A stretch of 20,000 bases of DNA, from IMG/VR virus record IMGVR_UViG_3300032330_000565. One strand, 5' to 3'. Every line of letters starts with the position of its first letter. Positions within the stretch are counted from its first letter, which is position 1. This document shows, in pieces, positions 6,635 through 15,969 of the stretch. The notes below the pieces were generated by a model that was given only the letters and a program-made list of their open reading frames with translations, had not been told where the DNA came from and did no database searches. This stretch comes from an uncultured virus (IMG/VR IMGVR_UViG_3300032330_000565). Lineage: Duplodnaviria; Heunggongvirae; Uroviricota; Caudoviricetes. The position numbers and the translations under genes are program-made.

Positions 6635-7546
6635 ATGTCATTACCCTCAAGAAAACCCGTCAATTATTTAAATAACAAAGATATCTTAAAAGAGATACAC
6701 GAAAGTAAAAACGCATACTGCTGCTTCACAAAACCAGAATATCATAGATACGACTTCATAGTGGATATGCCACAATCTTCAATAGAAGAAAGTCTAGAAC
6801 ATGCATTTAAACCCGAAACTATTCAACAAGCCAAAGAAACTAGAGCCGCTAGATTAAGTTTAGAGGCGGGAGCAAAAGATAGTATTTCCCCAGATTCTAT
6901 AGCCGTAACCGATCTAGTTTTCCGTGTAATGAATTGGGATCACGTCCCAGTCGCCCCAAAAGTCCCCCGCAAAACAGTTAAAAAGAAAACAGCAAAGGAT
7001 ATCTTTGAATTTGAAGAATCTGACCCAGATGAGATTTTCGCTGATTTAGAAGATGTAACTACCAAAGCAGAAGTAGATGACATGGTTCATGTCAAAGTAA
7101 ACTTCCCTCCATTCCAACATTACAAAATTGATAAAAATAATACATTCTATTGCGTAGGTAAAAGTCATTGGAAGGGCGATCTAGCAACTGGAGAATTCAG
7201 TAAAGATCATGGACAAGTCACAAACAAACTTGCCCGTATGTATATTATGATGTGCGAAAAATATGCCATGAAATACAATTGGCGTGGATATACATACAAC
7301 GATGAAATGCGTAACAGTGCCATTCTACAGCTTACTTATGTTGGACTACGATTCAATGAAGCTAAATCAGCCAACCCATTCGCTTATTACACCGCAGCAA
7401 TTACAAATAGTTTCTGCCGTGTATTGAATACTGAAAAGCGTAATCAAAATATCCGTGATGATATCTTAGAGATTAATGGACTTAACCCAAGCTGGACTCG
7501 TCAGGGTCTGGGTGCCGGTATGAGTTCAGTTGTTTACGAAGAATAA
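6635..7546 (+). CDS. gp55: Late-transcription sigma factor, T4 gp55-like
   Basis: The N-terminal NYLNNKDILKEI and C-terminal YNWRGYTYNDEM...FNEAKSANPFAYYTAAITNSFCRVLNTEK match gp55 hallmark motifs. It lies upstream of gp47/gp46, as in T4-like phages. Confidence 0.85.
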   Translation: MSLPSRKPVNYLNNKDILKEIHESKNAYCCFTKPEYHRYDFIVDMPQSSIEESLEHAFKPETIQQAKETRAARLSLEAGAKDSISPDSIAVTDLVFRVMNWDHVPVAPKVPRKTVKKKTAKDIFEFEESDPDEIFADLEDVTTKAEVDDMVHVKVNFPPFQHYKIDKNNTFYCVGKSHWKGDLATGEFSKDHGQVTNKLARMYIMMCEKYAMKYNWRGYTYNDEMRNSAILQLTYVGLRFNEAKSANPFAYYTAAITNSFCRVLNTEKRNQNIRDDILEINGLNPSWTRQGLGAGMSSVVYEE

Positions 7547-8754: not shown

Positions 8755-9768
8755 ATGACTAACCTTTTTAAAAAAGCCGCTGTATTCACTGATATTCACT
8801 TTGGACTAAAGTCAAACAGTTTACAGCATAACCATGACTGCATGAATTTTGTTGATTGGTTCATTACCAAAGCCAAAAGTGAAGGGTGTGAAACTTGTTT
8901 TTTCTTAGGTGATTATAATCATCACAGGGCAAGTATCAACATCCACACATTACAGTTTGGATTACAAGCATTGGAGAAACTAAATGATAACTTTGATCGG
9001 GTATATTTTATACCGGGTAATCATGACCTTTATTATCGTGACCGCAGGGACATTCATAGTGTTGAGTGGGCTAAACATCTACCAAACGTACAAATCATCA
9101 ACGACTTCTTCAGTGAAGGAGATGTAGCAATTGCACCCTGGCTTGTGCAGGATGATTACAAAAAGGTTCAGAAACTAAGTGGCAAATATATGTTTGGGCA
9201 TTTTGAATTGCCCCGATTCTATATGAACGCTATGGTAGAGATGCCCGATCATGGTGAAATCAATACCGATCATATGAAGGGTTTTGATTATGTCTTTAGT
9301 GGTCATTTTCACAAACGACAAAGCAAAGCTAATGTTTGGTACATTGGCAATGCTTTCCCACATAACTATGCTGACGCACAAGATGATGCTCGTGGCATGA
9401 TGGTATTAGAATGGGGTGAAGATCCAATCTTTCATAGTTGGCCTAATCAACCCTTATATCGTGTCCATAAGTTAAGCGATATATTAGAAAATCCAAAGGG
9501 ATTGCTATTACCTGACAGTCATGTTAGAGTACATCTTGACATTGATATTTCATATGAAGAAGCTAATTTCATACGTGAAACATTAATCCCAGAACATAAA
9601 CTAAGAGAGATGGCATTGATACCAATGAAAGTAGACCAAGTTGAACAAGAGGGACGCGGTGATTTGAAGTTTGAATCAGTAGACCAAATCATCATTGACC
9701 AAATCAATAGCATTGAAAGTAATGCATTTGATAAACGAATACTCTTGGAAATTTATAACAATCTATGA
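8755..9768 (+). CDS. gp47: Recombination endonuclease subunit, gp47/Mre11/SbcD metallophosphoesterase
   Basis: Contains the metallophosphoesterase motifs DIHFG, LGD, GNHD, GHFE and SGHFH. It overlaps the gp46 start (ATGA). Confidence 0.93.
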   Translation: MTNLFKKAAVFTDIHFGLKSNSLQHNHDCMNFVDWFITKAKSEGCETCFFLGDYNHHRASINIHTLQFGLQALEKLNDNFDRVYFIPGNHDLYYRDRRDIHSVEWAKHLPNVQIINDFFSEGDVAIAPWLVQDDYKKVQKLSGKYMFGHFELPRFYMNAMVEMPDHGEINTDHMKGFDYVFSGHFHKRQSKANVWYIGNAFPHNYADAQDDARGMMVLEWGEDPIFHSWPNQPLYRVHKLSDILENPKGLLLPDSHVRVHLDIDISYEEANFIRETLIPEHKLREMALIPMKVDQVEQEGRGDLKFESVDQIIIDQINSIESNAFDKRILLEIYNNL

Positions 9769-11528
9769 TAACTCTGAAGAATATCACCCTCCGTAATTTT
9801 TTATCAATCGGACAAGTAACACAAGCAGTCAACTTTGACAGACAGGAACTAACACTTATTCTAGGTGAGAACTTAGACTTAGGTGGTGATGGTGCTCGTA
9901 ATGGTACGGGTAAAACATCATTGATTCAAGCCTTGTCCTACGCATTATTTGGTGTTCCCATTAACAGCATTCGTAAAGATAATCTAGTTAATCGTACCAA
10001 TGCTAAAAACATGATGGTAACACTAGAGTTTACTGTCAATGGTATTGATTATAAGATTGAACGCGGTCGTAAGCCCAACATTCTACGATTCTATGTAAAC
10101 AGTGATTTACAAAAGGGTGTAGATGATGCACAGGGCGAAAACAAAGAAACACAGGTTGCGATTGAAAGGGTAATCCACATGAGTTCAGATATGTTCAAAC
10201 ATATCGTGGCACTCAATACTTACAGCGAACCTTTTCTTGCATTAAAAGCAAACGAACAACGTGCTATTATTGAACAACTATTGGGTATCACTTTGCTTTC
10301 AGAAAAAGCAGAAGTTATTAAAGGTATGGTAAAAGATACTAAGGATGATATCCAACAAGAAGAATTTAAAGTTAAGGCAATTGAAGAAGCCAATAAACGT
10401 GTAAAAGAACAGATTGATTCTACTAAACGTAGACAGAAATTGTGGAAGATGAAGCACGATGAGGATTTAGAGAAACTTGCCATTGATTATCAGCGGTTGA
10501 TTACTATTGATATTGCTAATGAATTGCAGGCTCATAAAGATTTAACCACATACAATACTAAGCGCAAGACTATTGATGATCTTAATAAGTTGGTTGCTCG
10601 TTGTATAGCTGATGAAGCCAAAGAAGAAAAATTAATAAACAAACTAACAAAAGAAATTGTTGATTTAAAGAATCATACTTGCTATGCATGTGGACAAGAG
10701 TTCCATGATAAAAAGCATGAATCTGTGTTGGATGAGAAGGTAAAAGCACTACAAGAAGCCTCATTGCAGGCTTTGGCTATTAATACGCAATACGTAGAAC
10801 ATACACAATCATTGCAAGAATTAGGTGAGTTAGGTACAATGCCAGTCACTCACTATGATACAGAAGCACAAGCAATCAAACATAGTAGCCAACTTGAGAA
10901 TCTTATTAAAGATATTGAAAGAAAAGGTAATGAGGTTGATCCATATAGTGAACAGATTATTGAGATGGAGAACCAGGCATTACAAGAAATTAACTTTGAT
11001 AAGATTAATAAGTTAACACGTACTATGGAACATCAAAAGTTCTTGCTTGATTTATTGACCAGCAAAGATAGTTTTGTTCGTAAGAAGATTATTGACCAGA
11101 ATCTATCATATTTGAATGGTAGATTGACACATTACTTAGATAAGATTGGATTGCCACATCAAGTAATATTTAAAAATGATTTACAAGTTGAGATTACGGA
11201 ATTGGGGCGTGAACTTGATTTTGATAATCTTAGTAGAGGTGAACGCAATCGTTTGATTCTAGGATTGAGTTTTGCGTTCCGTGATGTTTGGGAGAATTTA
11301 TATAGCCCAATCAATACATTGTTTATTGATGAATTGATTGATAGCGGGTTAGACACAATGGGTGTTGAGAATGCTATTGCTATTCTTAAAGAGATGAGCC
11401 GTCGTAGACAGAAATCTATTTGGCTTGTCAGTCATAGAGAAGAATTAGCAGGTAGAGTTCCAAACGTATTGAAAGTTGTAAAGGAAAACGGCTTTACAAG
11501 CTATAATACAGCAGTAGATATAGAATGA
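9765..11528 (+). CDS. gp46: Recombination ATPase subunit, gp46/Rad50/SbcC
   Basis: Contains Walker A RNGTGKT, a coiled coil with a CYAC zinc hook, signature LSRGE, Walker B/D-loop LFIDELIDSGLD and H-loop VSH. Confidence 0.95.
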   Translation: MITLKNITLRNFLSIGQVTQAVNFDRQELTLILGENLDLGGDGARNGTGKTSLIQALSYALFGVPINSIRKDNLVNRTNAKNMMVTLEFTVNGIDYKIERGRKPNILRFYVNSDLQKGVDDAQGENKETQVAIERVIHMSSDMFKHIVALNTYSEPFLALKANEQRAIIEQLLGITLLSEKAEVIKGMVKDTKDDIQQEEFKVKAIEEANKRVKEQIDSTKRRQKLWKMKHDEDLEKLAIDYQRLITIDIANELQAHKDLTTYNTKRKTIDDLNKLVARCIADEAKEEKLINKLTKEIVDLKNHTCYACGQEFHDKKHESVLDEKVKALQEASLQALAINTQYVEHTQSLQELGELGTMPVTHYDTEAQAIKHSSQLENLIKDIERKGNEVDPYSEQIIEMENQALQEINFDKINKLTRTMEHQKFLLDLLTSKDSFVRKKIIDQNLSYLNGRLTHYLDKIGLPHQVIFKNDLQVEITELGRELDFDNLSRGERNRLILGLSFAFRDVWENLYSPINTLFIDELIDSGLDTMGVENAIAILKEMSRRRQKSIWLVSHREELAGRVPNVLKVVKENGFTSYNTAVDIE

Positions 11529-12049
11529 AAATCGCAATAACAGGTCATACTTCTGGTATAGGATTAGCACTTGCTAATAGACTACAGCAAGACCACGATA
11601 TTGTTGGTCTAAGTAGAAGCAACGACTATAATATTGAAGATGTTTCTAGCATTGTTGCTGCGGCTAAAGATTGTGATGTTTTTATAAACAATGCATACTG
11701 TGAATATCAACAGGCTTTATTATTACAAGAACTATATATTAACTGGGAACATACTGATAAGCAGATAATTAATATTGGCAGTGTTGTTACAAATTACCCT
11801 CGTAGTCAAATAGAGTTGAATGACTTACCTTGGCCCTATCGTGACCACAAAATTGCATTAGAAAAGATGTTTAGAAACTTAGTTTGGAGACGTAGTCCTT
11901 GTAGTTTACATTTGATTAGTCCCGGGCCTGTTGATACACCAATGGTTAAACATTTACAAGTATCAAAACTAAATCCTAATAGTGTAGTTGACGTTGTACT
12001 GAATATAATGTATAATAGAAACATAAAAGAATTAACGTTATGGCAATAA
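11525..12049 (+). CDS. Short-chain dehydrogenase/reductase (compact SDR)
   Basis: Contains TGHTSGIG (TGxxxGxG), DVFINNA, INIGS, catalytic YRDHK (YxxxK) and SPGPVDTPM. Confidence 0.88.
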   Translation: MKIAITGHTSGIGLALANRLQQDHDIVGLSRSNDYNIEDVSSIVAAAKDCDVFINNAYCEYQQALLLQELYINWEHTDKQIINIGSVVTNYPRSQIELNDLPWPYRDHKIALEKMFRNLVWRRSPCSLHLISPGPVDTPMVKHLQVSKLNPNSVVDVVLNIMYNRNIKELTLWQ

Positions 12050-13143
12050 ACTGGCAATACTATCATTGGCATCTTGAACCTAGCGCAGTATGTGCGGTGA
12101 AATGTCCAAGGTGTCCTAGAACTGAGTATCCAGACACGCCATGGTTAAACTACAATATGGATTTAGAATTCATAAAGAAGTTCTTTACCCCAGAGATGTT
12201 GCAAACACAAGTGAAACGTATTACAATGTGTGGTGATGTAGGAGATCCTATCTACTGTAAAGAATTTATAGAGATATGCAGATACATCAAAGAACAGAAT
12301 CCAAAGATACACTTGTTTATAATTACTAACGGCAGTCATAAGAAACCAGAATGGTGGAGTGAACTTGCTAGCGTTTTAGATGCAAGAGATACTATTAACT
12401 TTAGTATTGACGGGTATGATAACGAATCAAATAACTTATACAGAGTAAACAGTAAGTTTGATAGTATTATAAATGGCATTCGTGCTGTGCGTGAAGTTAA
12501 CAAAGAAGTTTTTTTATCTTGGGCAGTTATTGTGTTTAGTTTTAACCAAGACCATTTAGATAAAATAAAAAATCACGCAATTGCATTAGAAATGGATTCG
12601 GTACAGATTACTAAAAGCACAAAGTTTGGTAGTAAGTATGGTACTGCATATGGAGCAGACAAAGATTCACTAGAACCTAGACCAGAATGGATAAGTTCTT
12701 CACATCGTTATGAACGTAGTGAAATTAACATTAGTAATCGCATTCAGGACAATAGTGATTACATGCAGACTAATCAAATAATGTTTGATAAGGTTAAGAA
12801 AGAATATGAAAATCAACCTATTGTTCCTTTATGCGAAATAGGGAACAGGGGTGTTTATGTAAATGCTGAAGGTGTTGTATTCCCTTGTTCTTGGTTGAGT
12901 TTCCCGTACAATGATTTGACATACAAAAACAAAACTATAAATTGGAAAGATACATTCTTTGCAATGTATAGAGAAAAGATGAATATACGCAATCGCCCAT
13001 TTGAAGATATCATTAACGATCCATTATGGAACAAATGTAGTAATGGATGGAAAGATGAATCAAAGACATGGGTAGAATGCGGGATGAAATGCAATCAATC
13101 TATTGTAGACCAAGAGTACGCAGTGGGCTGGTTAACCAATTAA
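12040..13143 (+). CDS. Radical SAM enzyme with a C-terminal SPASM/Twitch-like Cys region
   Basis: Contains CAVKCPRC (CxxxCxxC), CGDVGDP, ITNGS, FSIDG and YRVN. The C-terminus has LCEIG...VNAEGVVFPC...ECGMKC. Confidence 0.9.
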   Translation: MAINWQYYHWHLEPSAVCAVKCPRCPRTEYPDTPWLNYNMDLEFIKKFFTPEMLQTQVKRITMCGDVGDPIYCKEFIEICRYIKEQNPKIHLFIITNGSHKKPEWWSELASVLDARDTINFSIDGYDNESNNLYRVNSKFDSIINGIRAVREVNKEVFLSWAVIVFSFNQDHLDKIKNHAIALEMDSVQITKSTKFGSKYGTAYGADKDSLEPRPEWISSSHRYERSEINISNRIQDNSDYMQTNQIMFDKVKKEYENQPIVPLCEIGNRGVYVNAEGVVFPCSWLSFPYNDLTYKNKTINWKDTFFAMYREKMNIRNRPFEDIINDPLWNKCSNGWKDESKTWVECGMKCNQSIVDQEYAVGWLTN

Positions 13144-13152
13144 GGAATAAAA

Positions 13153-13779
13153 ATGAAAATTTTAATTACAGGTGGTAATAAAGGGTTGGGCAAATATTTA
13201 ACAGAGCAGTTTGGTGCTGATAGTATTGGACGTTCTGAGGGGTATGATATTACTAAACCAGAAGATCAAAAGCGTATTGCTGAATTAAGTCTGCAATATG
13301 ATGTGTTTATTAATAATGCATTTGACGGTCCACCAGCAGAAGATTGGGCTAATTTTGGCCAAGTTAATGTATATCTTGCTGTGTATGAAGCATGGCGTAA
13401 CATTGACAAAGGTGGACATATATTCAATATAGGATCAATTGGGGCAAAAGTTATACCTGCACCCGAACCTAGATACAAAACATATTGTGTAGCTAAAGCT
13501 GCATTAGAACAAGCTAGTAAGCAAGGAACACAGGGTTTTAAACAAGGCAAAGCTAAGTTTAAGACTACATTGATTACAATGGATAAATTGAATACTGCCG
13601 AGCATCCTCATTGGAAGCCTGAATGGTATGATGCATTTTGGCCTAGGCTAGAACAATGGGAAGGTACCGGTATTGAATTAGAAGATATCTACAACTATAT
13701 AAAATTTTGTTTAACTTTGGGTAAAAATAATTGCATTGAAGAAACAGTTTTTTATTGCAATTACGATATTAAGGGATAA
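13153..13779 (+). CDS. Short-chain dehydrogenase/reductase (compact SDR)
   Basis: Contains TGGNKGLG, DVFINNA, FNIGS and YCVAK (YxxxK). An SD sequence TAAGGA lies upstream. Confidence 0.88.
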   Translation: MKILITGGNKGLGKYLTEQFGADSIGRSEGYDITKPEDQKRIAELSLQYDVFINNAFDGPPAEDWANFGQVNVYLAVYEAWRNIDKGGHIFNIGSIGAKVIPAPEPRYKTYCVAKAALEQASKQGTQGFKQGKAKFKTTLITMDKLNTAEHPHWKPEWYDAFWPRLEQWEGTGIELEDIYNYIKFCLTLGKNNCIEETVFYCNYDIKG

Positions 13780-13789
13780 GTATATGTCT

Positions 13790-14350
13790 ATGTCAAGTCC
13801 ACAGAAAAACAAAGGTTCAGGTTTCGAGCGAGAAATCGCTAAATATCTCTCAGAGAAATACGGTGAAAGTTTCATTCGTGCTCCTGGATCTGGTGCTTAT
13901 GTGGGCGGGAAGAATCAGAGTAGAACAGAAGTATTACACGAAGGACAGATTCGTTCATTCAAAGGTGATATTGTGCCTGGGCAGTCATTTACAAAAATGA
14001 ACGTTGAGTGCAAGTTTTATGCTGATTTTCCTTTTCATTTATTACTTACAGGGGAATGTAAAGTAATAGATGCATGGATTGGACAACTTATGGACGTAGC
14101 TGATCCTAACGATTTAAACATTCTTTTTATGAAATTTAATCGTAAAGGTCGTTATATTTGTGTACAAAGCAAATTAACATGGGTTGCTGATAATTTTACT
14201 TATTATACATCTCAAAAACACGGAGACTGGATGATTTTTGAATTTGATAGTTTCTTCTTACACAATACTGAATTACTTAAAACATATTCTAGTACAATAG
14301 ACACCAAGTCAATAGAAAACAAAGATTCCCTTTTAACAATTAATATATAA
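13790..14350 (+). CDS. PD-(D/E)XK nuclease, Holliday-junction-resolvase-like (Hjc type)
   Basis: Contains KNKGSGFERE, RAPGSGA, GDIV and VECKFY. The start is likely ATG 13790 (or 13784) rather than the track's 13736, which overlaps the SDR. Confidence 0.8.
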   Translation: MSSPQKNKGSGFEREIAKYLSEKYGESFIRAPGSGAYVGGKNQSRTEVLHEGQIRSFKGDIVPGQSFTKMNVECKFYADFPFHLLLTGECKVIDAWIGQLMDVADPNDLNILFMKFNRKGRYICVQSKLTWVADNFTYYTSQKHGDWMIFEFDSFFLHNTELLKTYSSTIDTKSIENKDSLLTINI

Positions 14351-14720
14351 AAATTTGACGGCTCAGCTTGTGAGTCCTCCTTGAGTTTGTACAGATAGTG
14401 CTGTGCTGACGGATCTGGAGTATGCATGAACAGCAATGTTCATGGAAAACCGAGAAGGCAATCGTCAAAGCGAACCTTCAATGAGTCTATATCTAACTCT
14501 ATCTTGCGGATATAGAACATGCGTTGTCGAAGAATCAATTGAAAGACATTGGTAGCTTCACTACAGTCCCAAAAACACTACAGGACAACCGGTTGCGTAT
14601 AATGTCATGAAAAAGGCAATTATACGGGGAATAGATGGCAAAGGATGACGGGCATGGCAAGTTTCCATTGGTAGTGCAAAATTGCACTACCATGGCTTCA
14701 AAGCGGCAATATATTCCGAA
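14351..14720 (+). ncRNA. Candidate large structured non-coding RNA, family unassigned
   Basis: At least eight near-consecutive hairpins in a non-coding convergent gap. Examples: CATGAACA-GCAA-TGTTCATG (14425-14444), TCTATATC/GATATAGA (14486-14516), CGTATAAT/ATTATACG (14596-14626), TGGTAGTGCA/TGCACTACCA (14669-14692). The G-U pairs favour the + strand. Boundaries are approximate. Confidence 0.6.
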
Positions 14721-14740
14721 TCAAATAAAAGTTTTTAAGA

Positions 14741-14802
14741 CTACAGAATTGTAGAAAACAAAGACCGAACGAAGTGAGGTCTTAGATGAACGTAGTTCAT
14801 CT
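14741..14802. other. Cluster of three short hairpins (ssDNA signal or terminator of the leftward operon)
   Basis: CTACA-GAAT-TGTAG (14741-14754), AAGACC-GA-AC-GAA-GT-GA-GGTCTT (14761-14783) and AGATGAAC-GTA-GTTCATCT (14784-14802). Confidence 0.6.
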
Positions 14803-14856
14803 CTTAATGAAACAACCCAATGTTAGATAAATGAATAATTGCGTCTACAGTACCAA

Positions 14857-15033
14857 TTAGAAGAACGGCATTTGTGTTTTCTTAGTAGTTTCTAGATTGT
14901 TCTCTACTAATTCATTTACTAGTTTACGTTCCTCATGGGACATGTTTAGGATATCTTCATACGAAGCACCGCCCCTCATATACCAAGATAAAGTCAATGC
15001 TGACTTTCTTATCTCGGTACATTCTTTTTCCAT
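14857..15033 (-). CDS. Small gp51-like baseplate hub assembly ORF, probably expressed as a -1 frameshift extension of the gp26-like gene
   Basis: Below the ORF-track cut-off at 58 aa: MEKECTEIRKSALTLSWYMRGGASYEDILNMSHEERKLVNELVENNLETTKKTQMPFF. The SYEDILNMS-x2-ER motif resembles gp51 and tail-chaperone extensions. There is no SD, and the frame stays open upstream to the end of the gp26-like gene. Confidence 0.75.
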   Translation of the reverse strand: MEKECTEIRKSALTLSWYMRGGASYEDILNMSHEERKLVNELVENNLETTKKTQMPFF

Positions 15034-15043
15034 GCTGTCTAGC

Positions 15044-15093
15044 AGCTTCTGAACACCCTCAGGGTCTAAGTGTAGAAGCCTTAACCGAAAAAA
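15044..15093 (-). promoter_or_regulatory. Candidate programmed -1 ribosomal frameshift signal
   Basis: Slippery heptamer T TTT TTC (15093-15087), 6-nt spacer GGTTAA, then the stem-loop GGCTTCT-ACAC...GTGT-TC-AGAAGCT (15080-15044). Confidence 0.7.
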
Positions 15094-15905
15094 TCTGATT
15101 GGTTAATTACTATATCTTGTGAATATTCATGTTGGCAATGAATACATTTGATTTTTTGTGGCTCTAATTTTGATTGATCTTTTAATTTACCGTGATAATC
15201 ACGTATCTCAACATAGATGTTCTTATCACAGTTCTGCAAATATTCTAATATAAATTCTCTTTGGTTTACTACTATATCTTTAATTTTTACATATTCAATA
15301 GTTTGAGATAATAGATCCATTGTAATTGAAGTGATTGATACTACTGCCTCATGCATCTTTGCAGTTCGTTCTTCTTCTGGCAATGATTGCAGATTTGTAA
15401 AGACTTTTTGTAGTTCAAATTGATGTTTTCCAGCAAGACTCATTTCTTTGTAAATCAATGGTCTGAATTTTATTTCCATTTCACCTAAACGTAATGGGGT
15501 AGAGTAGTCTACTTTTTTGATATTTTGTAGCATACCAATTAAATTAACCCCATAAGTAGCCGCTTCAGTACATGCTGGACATGTAGATTCAACTTCTAAA
15601 TCATTGCCCTGTGAGCAAGATTTGATTGCTAACAATATAGCATCCACGTCAATGCTTTTTACTTGCCAAGGGTCTTTGATTGCTGGTACACAGCTTTTGA
15701 TTAGTTCTACGATAGCAGTACCATTATACAAAGCGTCTGGTGTTCTAACTGTGATTTCATCAATTGCAGTCATTGGATATACTGGAACTTCCCCGGTTTC
15801 CGACATATTTAAAACTTCCGAAGAATATCCTTCTCCGCCACTGGGCAATTTTAAATAAATTGAGGGTCTGCGAAAATATTGCTTTAATGGATTGTTTGGT
15901 AACAT
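15081..15905 (-). CDS. Baseplate hub assembly protein, T4 gp26-like
   Basis: Contains YLKLPSGG, PMTAIDE, IDVDAILLAIK, two CxxC pairs (CPAC, CIHC) and a terminal DFFG. SD AAAGGA is upstream. The gene neighbours the tape-measure gene. Confidence 0.78.
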   Translation of the reverse strand: MLPNNPLKQYFRRPSIYLKLPSGGEGYSSEVLNMSETGEVPVYPMTAIDEITVRTPDALYNGTAIVELIKSCVPAIKDPWQVKSIDVDAILLAIKSCSQGNDLEVESTCPACTEAATYGVNLIGMLQNIKKVDYSTPLRLGEMEIKFRPLIYKEMSLAGKHQFELQKVFTNLQSLPEEERTAKMHEAVVSITSITMDLLSQTIEYVKIKDIVVNQREFILEYLQNCDKNIYVEIRDYHGKLKDQSKLEPQKIKCIHCQHEYSQDIVINQSDFFG

Positions 15906-15944
15906 TAGTTGTATTCCTTTGATAAAAAAACGGGTTTTTCCCGA

Positions 15945-15969
15945 TACTAAATACTAGTGATATTTAGTA
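15945..15969. promoter_or_regulatory. Inverted pair of candidate late promoters, TACTAAATA-N7-TATTTAGTA
   Basis: A perfect 9-bp inverted repeat (15945-15953 / 15961-15969) in the divergent gap between the gp26-like and tape-measure genes. Each half contains TAAATA. Confidence 0.65.

What the first reader, a model, noticed from the sequence alone, without database searches (positions are those of the whole stretch)
14351..14720. Unassigned large structured RNA candidate directly downstream of the resolvase
Seen: the only large non-coding gap (~505 nt, between convergent genes) in an otherwise tightly packed window is almost fully pairable. Hairpins: GGCTCA/TGAGTC 14360-14376; CTCC..GTACAG/CTGTGC..GGAG 14377-14420; an 8-bp stem with a GCAA (GNRA) tetraloop 14425-14444; GAAGG..TCG/CGA..CCTTC 14454-14479; 14486-14516; GAAG..ATCAAT/ATTGGT..CTTC 14529-14559; GTCC/GGAC 14566-14586; 14596-14626; and a 10+3-bp stem 14665-14695. 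Long-range pairings are also possible. TTTGACG (14354-14360) is complementary to CGTCAAA (14463-14469), which covers a hairpin loop, so it could form a pseudoknot or an alternative helix. CATGC-GTTGTC (14518-14528) can pair with GATGAC-GG-GCATG (14644-14656) to close a multibranch junction. Several stems need G-U pairs that work only on the + strand. Established: phages encode large structured RNAs of unknown function, such as GOLLD and ROOL. Inference: this is a 350-450 nt RNA transcribed with or after the recombination operon, possibly a ribozyme, scaffold or replication-primer RNA. I could not match it to a known family.
Basis: partly seen in the sequence, partly recalled or inferred. Interest (0 to 1): 0.85.

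Follow-up and report, generated by a model that had tools for sequence, protein, structure and literature searches.

The report
New large pseudoknotted jumbo-phage RNA
The 500-base gap after a DNA-repair nuclease gene of this uncultured giant T4-like phage encodes an RNA of roughly 350-450 bases that folds into an intricate, knotted shape kept intact in more than 200 related phages, matches no catalogued RNA family and has no known job.

Summary
The finding is real. Window 14351-14856 is non-coding. Its + strand carries a conserved structured RNA with a core at about 14356-14712, followed by two hairpins (14761-14802).

- **Distribution:** homologues lie at the same place in 206 of 207 IMG/VR loci and in 20 of 20 further loci. 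There is one copy in each of five phage genomes of 267-525 kb.
- **Structure:** on 105 distinct sequences, 93.9% of cells in my 125-pair structure are paired, against 33-44% when partners are slid. Of the 125 pairs, 93 change on both sides. None of 500 shuffles reached any measure.
- **Tertiary contacts:** there are two covarying pseudoknots (14499-14504:14633-14638 and 14567-14570:14627-14630). There is also a non-Watson-Crick pair, 14652/14703, that switches G/G to U/U at least 10 times independently.
- **Strand:** G-U cells outnumber A-C cells 623 to 140. The folding z-score is -2.98 on + and -0.39 on -.
- **Family:** no Rfam, tRNA or tmRNA match.
eight of nine hairpins hold. Its two long-range pairings and one hairpin do not.

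Function is unknown. No transcript data could be obtained. This scan already noted the same family in another genome (e1-5365887).

The parts
13736..14350 (+). Upstream gene: PD-(D/E)XK endonuclease ('resolvase', T5 D14-like). The RNA always follows it.
   Evidence: Pfam PF24608, E 5.7e-25. PHROG 244, named RusA-like resolvase. It lies upstream on the same strand in every locus with enough room.
14346..14359 (+). Conserved A-rich leader just 5' of the first helix. It may be a -10-like promoter element or a processing signal.
   Evidence: Columns are 80-100% conserved, including in sequences where the resolvase stop codon lies 15-120 nt further upstream. It is not a repeated genome-wide motif: in 4 related genomes it occurs only once, at the RNA itself.
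14360..14376 (+). P1 hairpin (6 bp).
   Evidence: 5 of 6 pairs change on both sides (helix 1). Pair 14361:14375 covaries with the third base of the P4 tetraloop (MI 0.81; 4 of 5 independent contrasts go the same way).
14377..14420 (+). P2 (14377-14380:14417-14420) enclosing the variable hairpin P3 (14386-14394:14401-14409).
   Evidence: P2 is 100% paired, with a C-G to U-A double change in 3 sequences from 2 independent events. In P3, 6 of 8 pairs change on both sides and 89% of cells are paired.
14425..14444 (+). P4 hairpin, 8 bp, with a GNRA-type loop at 14433-14436.
   Evidence: 8 of 8 pairs change on both sides (helix 4). The loop G and A are 95-96% conserved.
14448..14594 (+). Four-way-junction domain. 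P5 (14448-14452:14590-14594) encloses P6 (14454-14479), P7 (14481-14520) and P8 (14523-14528:14584-14589). P8 encloses the variable hairpin P9 (14529-14559) and an invariant single-stranded stretch (14560-14583).
   Evidence: helices 5-8, 10 and 11: 96-100% paired, except P9 at 76%. P6 pair 14456:14477 switched in 13 of 13 independent contrasts.
14499..14504 (+). Pseudoknot PK1, 5' strand (loop of P7). It pairs with 14633-14638.
   Evidence: 5 of 6 pairs change on both sides and 97.5% of cells are paired (helix 9). Independent contrasts going the same way: 6 of 6, 7.7 of 9 and 5.8 of 7; none went the other way.
14567..14570 (+). Pseudoknot PK2, 5' strand. It pairs with 14627-14630.
   Evidence: 4 of 4 pairs change on both sides and 97.5% of cells are paired (helix 12). 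3 of 3 independent contrasts go the same way.
14596..14626 (+). P10 hairpin (11 bp with one bulge).
   Evidence: 10 of 11 pairs change on both sides (helix 13). It carries 136 G-U cells against 4 A-C cells.
14627..14664 (+). Conserved joining region. It holds the 3' strands of PK2 (14627-14630) and PK1 (14633-14638), a weak 3-bp hairpin P11 (14645-14655), and base 14652 of the tertiary pair.
   Evidence: P11 is only weakly supported (1 of 3 pairs changes on both sides).
14665..14695 (+). P12 hairpin, 13 bp. This is the most conserved element.
   Evidence: 7 of 13 pairs never vary. The loop-closing pair switches U-A to A-U (6 of 6 independent contrasts). The exact motif was found in more than 120 IMG/VR stretches.
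14696..14713 (+). Invariant 3' tail of the core. It contains base 14703, the tertiary partner of 14652.
   Evidence: The 14652/14703 states are G/G 62, U/U 35, C/A 3, A/A 2, C/C 1 and G/A 1 (tally; G/G and U/U counts also). MI is 1.21 bits against 0.47 for the next-best partner. 10 of 10 independent contrasts go the same way, p 0.002.
14714..14760 (+). Variable, A+U-rich linker.
   Evidence: Column conservation is mostly 40-80%, with many indels.
14761..14802 (+). Two adjacent conserved hairpins: A (14761-14783, with a 2x2 G-A internal loop) and B (14784-14802). They are probably the 3' end of the RNA. The A-run before hairpin A could also serve as the U-run of a terminator for the convergent gene.
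   Evidence: In B, 7 of 8 pairs change on both sides and 99.8% of cells are paired (helix 22). The loops are of the C-G..A-G type on +. Hairpin A is more stable on + in 99 of 105 sequences. Both hairpins stay with the RNA when the downstream gene differs. No canonical U-run follows B (mean 2.5 T in 8 nt), and the scan found no terminator-like site.
14826..14843 (.). Conserved 18-nt motif after hairpin B. Its role and strand are unknown.
   Evidence: Columns are 90-100% conserved at 14827-14835. A related motif persists next to hairpin B where other genes are inserted downstream.
14857..15905 (-). Convergent gene: gp26/gp51-like baseplate-hub protein with a -1 frameshift site (15087-15093, - strand). 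The long form ends at 14857.
   Evidence: Pfam PF12322. The -1 frame is open from the slippery run to 14857. The same frameshift is described in earlier notes on related genomes.

Best explanation
The gap holds a gene for a discrete, + strand, non-coding RNA of a family that is in no catalogue.

Shown here:
- About 357 nt (14356-14712) fold into twelve helices around a four-way junction.
- The fold is locked by two pseudoknots (PK1 and PK2) and a lone non-Watson-Crick pair (14652/14703).
- A tetraloop probably docks on P1.
- Roughly 70 invariant bases sit mostly in junctions.
- Two + strand hairpins lie downstream of a variable linker.

Inferred, not shown:
- The RNA starts within a few bases of 14360, either at a -10-like element in the conserved leader or by processing of the upstream operon transcript.
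- It ends after hairpin B, near 14805, which gives a stable RNA of about 450 nt.
- It acts in trans during infection as a compactly folded particle: an RNA-only or RNA-protein assembly in the manner of the large 'ornate' phage RNAs GOLLD and ROOL. It does not act as a cis regulator.

I cannot tell whether it is catalytic, a scaffold or a decoy. My odds are about 35% scaffold or assembly, 25% decoy for a host factor, 20% ribozyme, 10% cis 3'-UTR element and 10% other.
For: Conservation:
- 79 of 80 loci with a related resolvase carry the gap at 70-94% identity.
- 206 of 207 loci held gave an nhmmer match, and 20 of 20 further, more distant loci did too.

Structure:
- 93.9% of cells are paired, against 33-44% when partners are slid. 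Of 125 pairs, 93 change on both sides. None of 500 shuffles reached any of the five measures.
- Eight hold-out sequences kept 648 of 746 core pairs.
- Mutual information, computed without any energy model, recovered the helices and found PK1, PK2 and 14652/14703.
- Tree-aware contrasts going the same way: P6 13 of 13, P10 13 of 13, PK1 6 of 6, 14652/14703 10 of 10.

Strand:
- G-U cells 623 against A-C cells 140.
- z -2.98 on + against -0.39 on -.
- Hairpin A is more stable on + in 99 of 105 sequences.

Not coding: no 3-base periodicity of variation (0.666, 0.650, 0.647) and no conserved open frame.

Not cis-regulatory of a downstream gene: the next gene is convergent.

The unit travels with the resolvase side. 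In L082, L086, L140, L146 and L151 the downstream gene is displaced or different, yet the core and both hairpins remain.

There is one copy per genome in 5 of 5 phage genomes of 267-525 kb.
Against: - No transcript evidence.
- The simple scans found no terminator-like site, and promoter-like sites were no more frequent than in shuffles (5 against 5.7). No -35 element is conserved. Hairpin B is not followed by a U-run.
- The RNA starts about 10 nt after the resolvase stop codon and never separates from that gene. It could therefore be a co-transcribed 3' element.
- Synteny is nearly constant, so neighbours say little about function.
- The alignment is MAFFT-based. The tree for the independence tests was built from the same alignment, and phage recombination could inflate the number of 'independent' switches.
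- Nothing observed points to one function over another.
Confidence: 0.6

Rival explanations
1. A cis-acting 3' element of the upstream operon. The structure is transcribed as the 3' untranslated end of the resolvase mRNA and protects it from 3' exonucleases, or sets its processing, with no function of its own.
For: It begins about 10 nt after the stop codon. No convincing promoter was found. It always follows the resolvase gene and stays with it when the downstream gene changes.
Against: A 3' protective element needs a hairpin or two. It does not need twelve helices, two pseudoknots, a covarying non-canonical pair and about 70 invariant junction bases. The conserved leader persists at a fixed distance from P1 even where the stop codon lies 15-120 nt further upstream. 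That ties the leader to the RNA and not to the gene's end.
Confidence: 0.12
2. A new ribozyme. The invariant junction bases form an active site, for instance for self-processing from the operon transcript or for action on a host or phage RNA.
For: The size, the pseudoknotted compact core, the tetraloop-helix covariation and the dense invariant unpaired bases resemble large ribozymes (the comparison itself rests on recalled general knowledge).
Against: No match to any ribozyme family in Rfam, including at permissive E-values on 21 family members. No exons, so it is not an intron. No cleavage-site signature could be tested here.
Confidence: 0.2
3. An RNA partner of the adjacent PD-(D/E)XK nuclease. 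The conserved core would be a protein-binding scaffold, and the variable segment 3' of it (14714-14760) a guide. This would parallel transposon nucleases whose guide RNA is encoded at the 3' end of the nuclease gene.
For: The RNA is strictly adjacent to a nuclease gene and on the same strand in all loci. A variable stretch follows directly after a conserved scaffold.
Against: The same nuclease family is common in phages that have no such gap. The closest isolate, at 47.6% identity, has the next gene 12 nt after the resolvase gene. The variable segment is A+U-rich with indels, like ordinary spacer DNA. Adjacency is explained equally well by frozen synteny.
Confidence: 0.03
4. A DNA-level element, such as a replication origin, a packaging or recombination site, or a protein-binding palindrome. 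The hairpins would then be incidental inverted repeats.
For: P12 is an almost invariant 13-bp inverted repeat. The region lies beside recombination genes.
Against: G-U cells exceed A-C cells 623 to 140, which matters only in RNA of the + strand. The - strand folds no better than shuffles. Compensatory changes keep pairing while sequence drifts. The pseudoknots and the G/G to U/U pair have no DNA duplex meaning.
Confidence: 0.02

Closest known systems
GOLLD and ROOL RNAs (large 'ornate' RNAs of phages and prophages; cryo-EM study PMC12286853, of which I saw only the search listing and the start of the abstract)
   Same: Large, phage-borne, stand-alone non-coding RNAs with many helices and long-range loop pairings. 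They show strong covariation and have no known function.
   Different: No sequence or covariance-model similarity: no match to either family at any threshold tried. The core here is smaller (about 357 nt; their sizes are recalled as roughly 600-800 nt). It is not next to tRNA genes. Whether it forms oligomers is unknown. No conserved self-complementary loop was seen.
Group I introns of T4-like phages
   Same: Similar size. Compact pseudoknotted core, GNRA loop docking on a helix, presence in T4-type genomes (recalled).
   Different: No flanking exons: the upstream protein domain is complete (profile positions 2-159 of 164) and the downstream gene is convergent. No Rfam intron match. No conserved U-G pair with U on the 5' strand of P1.
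Bacterial RNase P RNA
   Same: Four-way junction, long-range pairings and a tetraloop-helix contact in an RNA of 350-400 nt (recalled).
   Different: No match to any RNase P model, even at E up to 10. The topology of the two pseudoknots differs. No helix closing the 5' and 3' ends was supported in general.
phi29 prohead (packaging) RNA
   Same: A phage-encoded structural RNA whose covarying loop pairing turned out to be between molecules (recalled). PK1 here could likewise be intra- or intermolecular.
   Different: Much smaller (recalled, about 120-174 nt) and from a different phage type. No Rfam match.
Guide-RNA scaffolds of IscB/TnpB nucleases (HEARO / omega RNA)
   Same: A large structured RNA encoded directly beside a nuclease gene, with a conserved scaffold next to a variable stretch.
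   Different: The nuclease here is a small PD-(D/E)XK resolvase-type enzyme that is widespread without any RNA. No Rfam match. There is no evidence that the variable stretch targets anything.

Membership tests
Any Rfam 15 family (4227 models, including large ornate RNAs, ribozymes, RNase P, tmRNA, riboswitches) | Covariance-model score at or above the family's gathering threshold | tested here: not met
   0 matches in the whole window. With permissive filters on 14250-14950 the best hits were 15-20 bits against thresholds of 36-60, none over the core as a whole. In 20 divergent homologues there were 4 weak, scattered hits and none on the RNA's strand.
Group I intron | Inserted in a gene, with exons on both sides that restore a reading frame or an RNA | tested here: not met
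   The upstream ORF carries the full PF24608 domain and stops at 14350. There is no + strand ORF downstream, and the next gene is convergent.
Group I intron | P1 with a conserved U-G wobble at the 5' splice site | tested here: not met
   No P1 pair has a conserved U on the 5' strand paired to G; pair types are listed (helix 1).
tmRNA / tRNA-like RNA | tRNA-like domain and tag reading frame recognised by ARAGORN | tested here: not met
   0 tRNA or tmRNA genes in the window.
Riboswitch or other 5' cis-regulator | Lies upstream of a gene on the same strand whose expression it controls | tested here: not met
   No + strand gene follows. The gp26/51-like gene converges on the RNA and ends at 14857.
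Large 'ornate' phage RNAs as a loose kind (GOLLD, ROOL) | More than 300 nt, many covarying helices plus long-range or loop pairings, phage-borne, not coding | tested here: met
   Core of median 358 nt, 93 pairs changing on both sides, two pseudoknots, found in phage genomes of 267-525 kb, no coding signal.
Large 'ornate' phage RNAs as a loose kind (GOLLD, ROOL) | Forms RNA-only homo-oligomers through intermolecular loop contacts | not testable with these tools
   Covariation cannot tell an intramolecular PK1 from an intermolecular one. This needs native gels, SEC-MALS or cryo-EM.
Intrinsic terminator (for hairpins A and B) | G+C-rich stem directly followed by a U-run | tested here: inconclusive
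   The scan found 0 terminator-like sites in 13600-15200. After B there are on average 2.5 T in 8 nt. Before A there are on average 4.8 A in 8 nt, which is a U-run for the - strand.

The most novel reading that the evidence does not exclude
This is a new class of natural RNA machine made by giant phages: a ribozyme, or a self-assembling RNA particle, whose invariant junction bases and knotted core carry out a step of infection that proteins do in other phages. PK1 may be an intermolecular contact that builds a multimer.
Probability: 0.15. Interest if true: 0.9.

Novelty: new variant of a known kind. Interest (0 to 1): 0.76.

Why it matters
Bacterial and phage RNAs that are this large, this intricately folded and this well conserved are rare. 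Almost every earlier example turned out to be a ribozyme, part of an RNA-protein machine or an unexpected RNA-only assembly.

This family is present, in one copy, in every examined member of a large clade of uncultured T4-like jumbo phages (genomes of 267-525 kb). It has more than 90 compensating base pairs, two pseudoknots and a repeatedly switching non-canonical pair.

It is therefore an unusually well-defined target. The structure model is precise enough to order a transcript for probing, cryo-EM and activity tests without further computation. It also adds to the growing evidence that large phages carry their own complex RNAs.

Tried and rejected
- **Rfam.** Gathering thresholds on the window, and permissive E-values on the gap and on 20 divergent homologues, found nothing credible. 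A 21-bit 'freshwater-1' hit in L117 lies on the opposite strand and far below its threshold of 72.
- **ARAGORN.** No tRNA or tmRNA.
14354-14360:14463-14469, 14518-14528:14644-14656 and hairpin 14566-14586 are rejected.
- **A stem closing a '3' domain' (14749-14755:14839-14844).** RNAalifold suggested it. I reject it because duplex energy with the sequence's own partner (-7.18) equals that with other sequences' partners (-7.17; 10 of 20 permutations were as good).
- **The RNAalifold pairings 14404-14408:14704-14708 and 14417-14420:14696-14699.** They compete with P3 and P2 and show no change on both sides. The G-to-A change at 14417 is matched at 14380 and not at 14699.
- **A base triple 14467 with 14603:14619.** The MI signal comes from a single evolutionary event.
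- **A helix joining the 5' leader to the 3' tail.** Clear in a few divergent members (L113, L101, L143) but weak overall (own partner -4.00 against -3.81; 11 of 1000 permutations reached it).
- **The leader as a general promoter motif.** In 4 related genomes it occurs only at the RNA itself.
- **Protein coding.** No periodicity and no conserved frame.
- **Prokaryote genomes.** 0 matches to the P12 motif in 185,579 species' genomes.
- **Cultured phages.** No DNA match to the gap. The closest resolvase carrier has no gap.
- **My first motif pattern.** It was off by one N and by accident found only 7 variants that carry an extra base.
- **Literature.** Four full-text searches and one preprint checked for terms gave no description of this RNA.

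Full report
**Context**

The window is part of an uncultured T4-type phage. It encodes:
- baseplate and hub proteins;
- a gp55-like late sigma factor (6635-7546);
- SbcD/SbcC-like nucleases (8755-11528);
- short-chain-dehydrogenase-like and radical-SAM genes (11525-13779);
- a PD-(D/E)XK endonuclease of the T5 D14 / 'resolvase' type (13736-14350, + strand);
- a portal protein.

The gene that converges on the gap is a gp26/gp51-like baseplate-hub gene. Its 274-codon frame stops at 15081. A -1 frame is open from a T-rich slippery run (15087-15093, - strand) down to 14857. Earlier notes of this scan describe this frameshift in related genomes. The non-coding gap is therefore 14351-14856.

Yes.
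- The + strand of 14351-14720 folds to -108.6 kcal/mol, z -2.98, with 1 of 100 shuffles as good. The - strand folds no better than shuffles (z -0.39, 33 of 100).
- For the whole gap the z-scores are -4.14 and -2.39.

**Homologues**

- A search with the resolvase protein found 306 related stretches in IMG/VR, of which the best 80 were kept. Of these 80, 79 carry a homologue of the gap at 70-94% DNA identity over about 490 nt. The remaining locus gave no match.
- A profile of the gap matched 206 of the 207 loci then held.
- A walk outward from a distant member (resolvase 58% identical) gave 20 loci, all with the RNA.
- Five whole phage records of 267-525 kb each hold one copy.
- The motif is absent from one genome each of 185,579 prokaryote species.
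- No cultured phage has DNA similar to the gap.
- The nearest cultured carrier of the resolvase, Salicola phage SCTP-2 (47.6% identity), has the next gene 12 nt after it.
- Of the 207 loci then held, 155 gave the full-length region; these collapse to 104 distinct sequences. With the window, that makes the 105-row alignment A1. Core identity between pairs is 58-100%, median 74%.

**Structure**

Conservation alternates between invariant blocks, mostly unpaired, and variable stems. RNAalifold and an energy-free mutual-information scan agree on the helices.

| Helix | Coordinates |
|---|---|
| P1 | 14360-14365:14371-14376 |
| P2 | 14377-14380:14417-14420 |
| P3 | 14386-14394:14401-14409 |
| P4 | 14425-14432:14437-14444, GNRA-type loop |
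| P5 | 14448-14452:14590-14594 |
| P6 | 14454-14458:14475-14479 and 14462-14464:14471-14473 |
| P7 | 14481-14483:14518-14520 and 14486-14493:14509-14516 |
| P8 | 14523-14528:14584-14589 |
| P9 | 14529-14559, variable |
| P10 | 14596-14606:14615-14626 |
| P11 | 14645-14647:14653-14655, weak |
| P12 | 14665-14678:14683-14695 |

P5, P6, P7 and P8 meet in a four-way junction.

The information scan also revealed contacts that no nested fold can contain:
- PK1: the loop of P7 (14499-14504) pairs with 14633-14638.
- PK2: 14567-14570 pairs with 14627-14630.
- 14652 and 14703 are almost always the same base (G/G 62, U/U 35, A/A 2, C/C 1, C/A 3, G/A 1). Their MI is 1.21 bits, and no third partner exceeds 0.47.
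- The third base of the P4 tetraloop covaries with pair 14361:14375 of P1 (MI 0.81). This pattern is expected for a tetraloop docked on a helix.

**Formal counts**

My 125-pair structure also included hairpins A and B and a later-rejected stem. On A1 it gives:
- 93.9% of 12,735 cells form standard pairs, against 33.4-43.7% when 3' partners are slid by 1-3 columns.
- 93 pairs change on both sides, against 33-54 when slid.
- None of 500 shuffles reached any of the five measures.

Kinship can mimic covariation, so I counted independent contrasts on a FastTree tree of A1:

| Pair | Contrasts going the same way |
|---|---|
| P6 14456:14477 | 13 of 13 |
| P10 14597:14625 | 13 of 13 |
| PK1 (three pairs) | 6 of 6, 7.7 of 9, 5.8 of 7 (none opposite) |
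| PK2 | 3 of 3 |
| P12 loop-closing pair | 6 of 6 |
| 14652/14703 | 10 of 10 (p 0.002) |
| P2 | 2 of 2 |
| Tetraloop against 14375 | 4 of 5 (p 0.125; suggestive only) |

Two caveats apply. The tree comes from the same alignment, and recombination between phages could inflate the number of independent events.

Eight sequences fetched after the structure was fixed kept 648 of 746 core pairs on a rough added alignment, and brought new compensating pair types.

Eight of the nine listed hairpins are confirmed. Hairpin 14566-14586 is not: its 5' arm belongs to PK2 and its 3' arm to P8. The two proposed long-range pairings are present in the window's sequence but are not kept in relatives.

**Strand and ends**

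- Over all helices, G-U cells number 623 and A-C cells 140. The imbalance is strongest in the well-aligned P3 (141 to 2) and P10 (136 to 4). The RNA is therefore read from the + strand.
- 5' of P1 lies a conserved A-rich leader (14346-14359). It keeps its distance to P1 even where the resolvase stop codon lies 15-120 nt further upstream.
- The leader resembles a -10 element, but no -35 is conserved. It is not reused elsewhere in four related genomes.
- 3' of the core (tail conserved to about 14713) comes a variable A+U-rich linker. Two conserved hairpins, A and B (14761-14802), follow.
- Their loops begin with G and end with A on the + strand (for B, 74 of 105 sequences share the commonest such loop with its C-G closing pair). 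Hairpin A contains a 2x2 G-A internal loop and is more stable on + in 99 of 105 sequences.
- Both hairpins stay next to the core where another gene has been inserted downstream (L082, L086, L140, L146).
- I therefore count them as the 3' part of the RNA unit. However, B lacks a U-run, and the A-run before A could serve the convergent gene as a terminator tail. The transcript ends are inferences.

**Not coding**

Column entropy in the core shows no 3-base period (0.666, 0.650, 0.647). The longest stop-free stretches differ in frame and length between relatives (median 55 codons on + and 60 on -).

**Known families**

- No Rfam 15 family matches, either at curated thresholds or at E up to 10, in the window or in 20 divergent relatives.
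- ARAGORN finds nothing.
- It is not an intron (no exons), not a 5' regulator (no downstream gene on its strand) and not a DNA palindrome (strand asymmetry, pseudoknots).
- Four full-text searches and a term check of one 2026 preprint found no description of it.
- The nearest kind is the loose group of large 'ornate' phage and prophage RNAs (GOLLD, ROOL). I saw the cryo-EM paper on them only as a listing and the start of its abstract.

**Mechanism**

What is shown is the fold. What I infer is a stable, trans-acting RNA of about 350-450 nt, made from the + strand during infection. I favour this over a mere 3' mRNA element because of three features:
- the complexity of the fold;
- the density of invariant unpaired bases;
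- the leader's fixed distance to P1.

I cannot decide between scaffold or assembly, decoy and ribozyme. PK1 could be intra- or intermolecular. The idea that the RNA guides the neighbouring nuclease is not excluded but is unlikely, because that nuclease family is common without any RNA.

**Earlier notes of this scan**

A note on another genome (e1-5365887, seen, after I had found PK1) describes the same family and a covarying knot from the same hairpin loop. So the scan has met this RNA before on other DNA. Other notes list further uncatalogued large phage RNAs. One of them warns that a remembered Rfam number for GOLLD was wrong, so I cite no accession numbers from memory.

**Limits**

- No expression data.
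- MAFFT alignments.
- No host known.

Noticed in passing
window 14857-15905 (- strand), slippery run at 15087-15093: The gp26/gp51-like baseplate-hub gene has a T-rich slippery run 4 nt before its stop codon. The -1 frame is open from there to 14857 and runs through the separately listed 58-codon ORF (14857-15033). This gives a long form about 75 residues longer. Earlier notes of this scan describe the same frameshift in related genomes.
   Followed up: partly
window 14826-14843: An 18-nt motif after hairpin B is 90-100% conserved at 14827-14835. A related motif stays beside hairpin B where other genes are inserted downstream (L082, L086, L140). Its strand and role are unknown. It could belong to the RNA's 3' end or be a signal for the convergent gene.
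   Followed up: partly
window 11525-13779: Two short-chain-dehydrogenase-like ORFs flank a radical-SAM gene (12040-13143). The 174-aa ORF matches the N-terminal part of the profile and the 208-aa ORF matches the middle part. It looks as if one reductase gene were split or duplicated around the radical-SAM gene.
   Followed up: no
L082, L086 and L146, directly 3' of hairpin B: In these relatives a 244-263-codon - strand gene is inserted between the RNA unit and the gp26/51-like gene. Its product begins with a motif that I recall as typical of SGNH/GDSL hydrolases; I ran no family search. L140 has a different 215-codon insert.
   Followed up: no
window 14652 and 14703: These two unpaired bases are nearly always identical to each other (G/G, U/U, A/A, C/C). 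They switched together at least 10 times. I know no simple pairing geometry that explains a same-base rule; it suggests a symmetric non-Watson-Crick contact.
   Followed up: partly
L101, L113, L143 (leader and tail of the RNA): In a divergent subgroup the leader and the 3' tail are complementary over 6-8 bp, with changes on both sides relative to the majority. This hints at a helix joining the RNA's two ends in some members. Support over the whole family is weak.
   Followed up: partly
window 15925-15950: Between the divergent gp26/51-like gene and the 1178-codon lysozyme-domain gene lies a short G+C hairpin. An A-run precedes it on the + strand, which is a U-run on the - strand. Next to it are two facing copies of an A/T-rich motif that may be this lineage's late promoters.
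   Followed up: no
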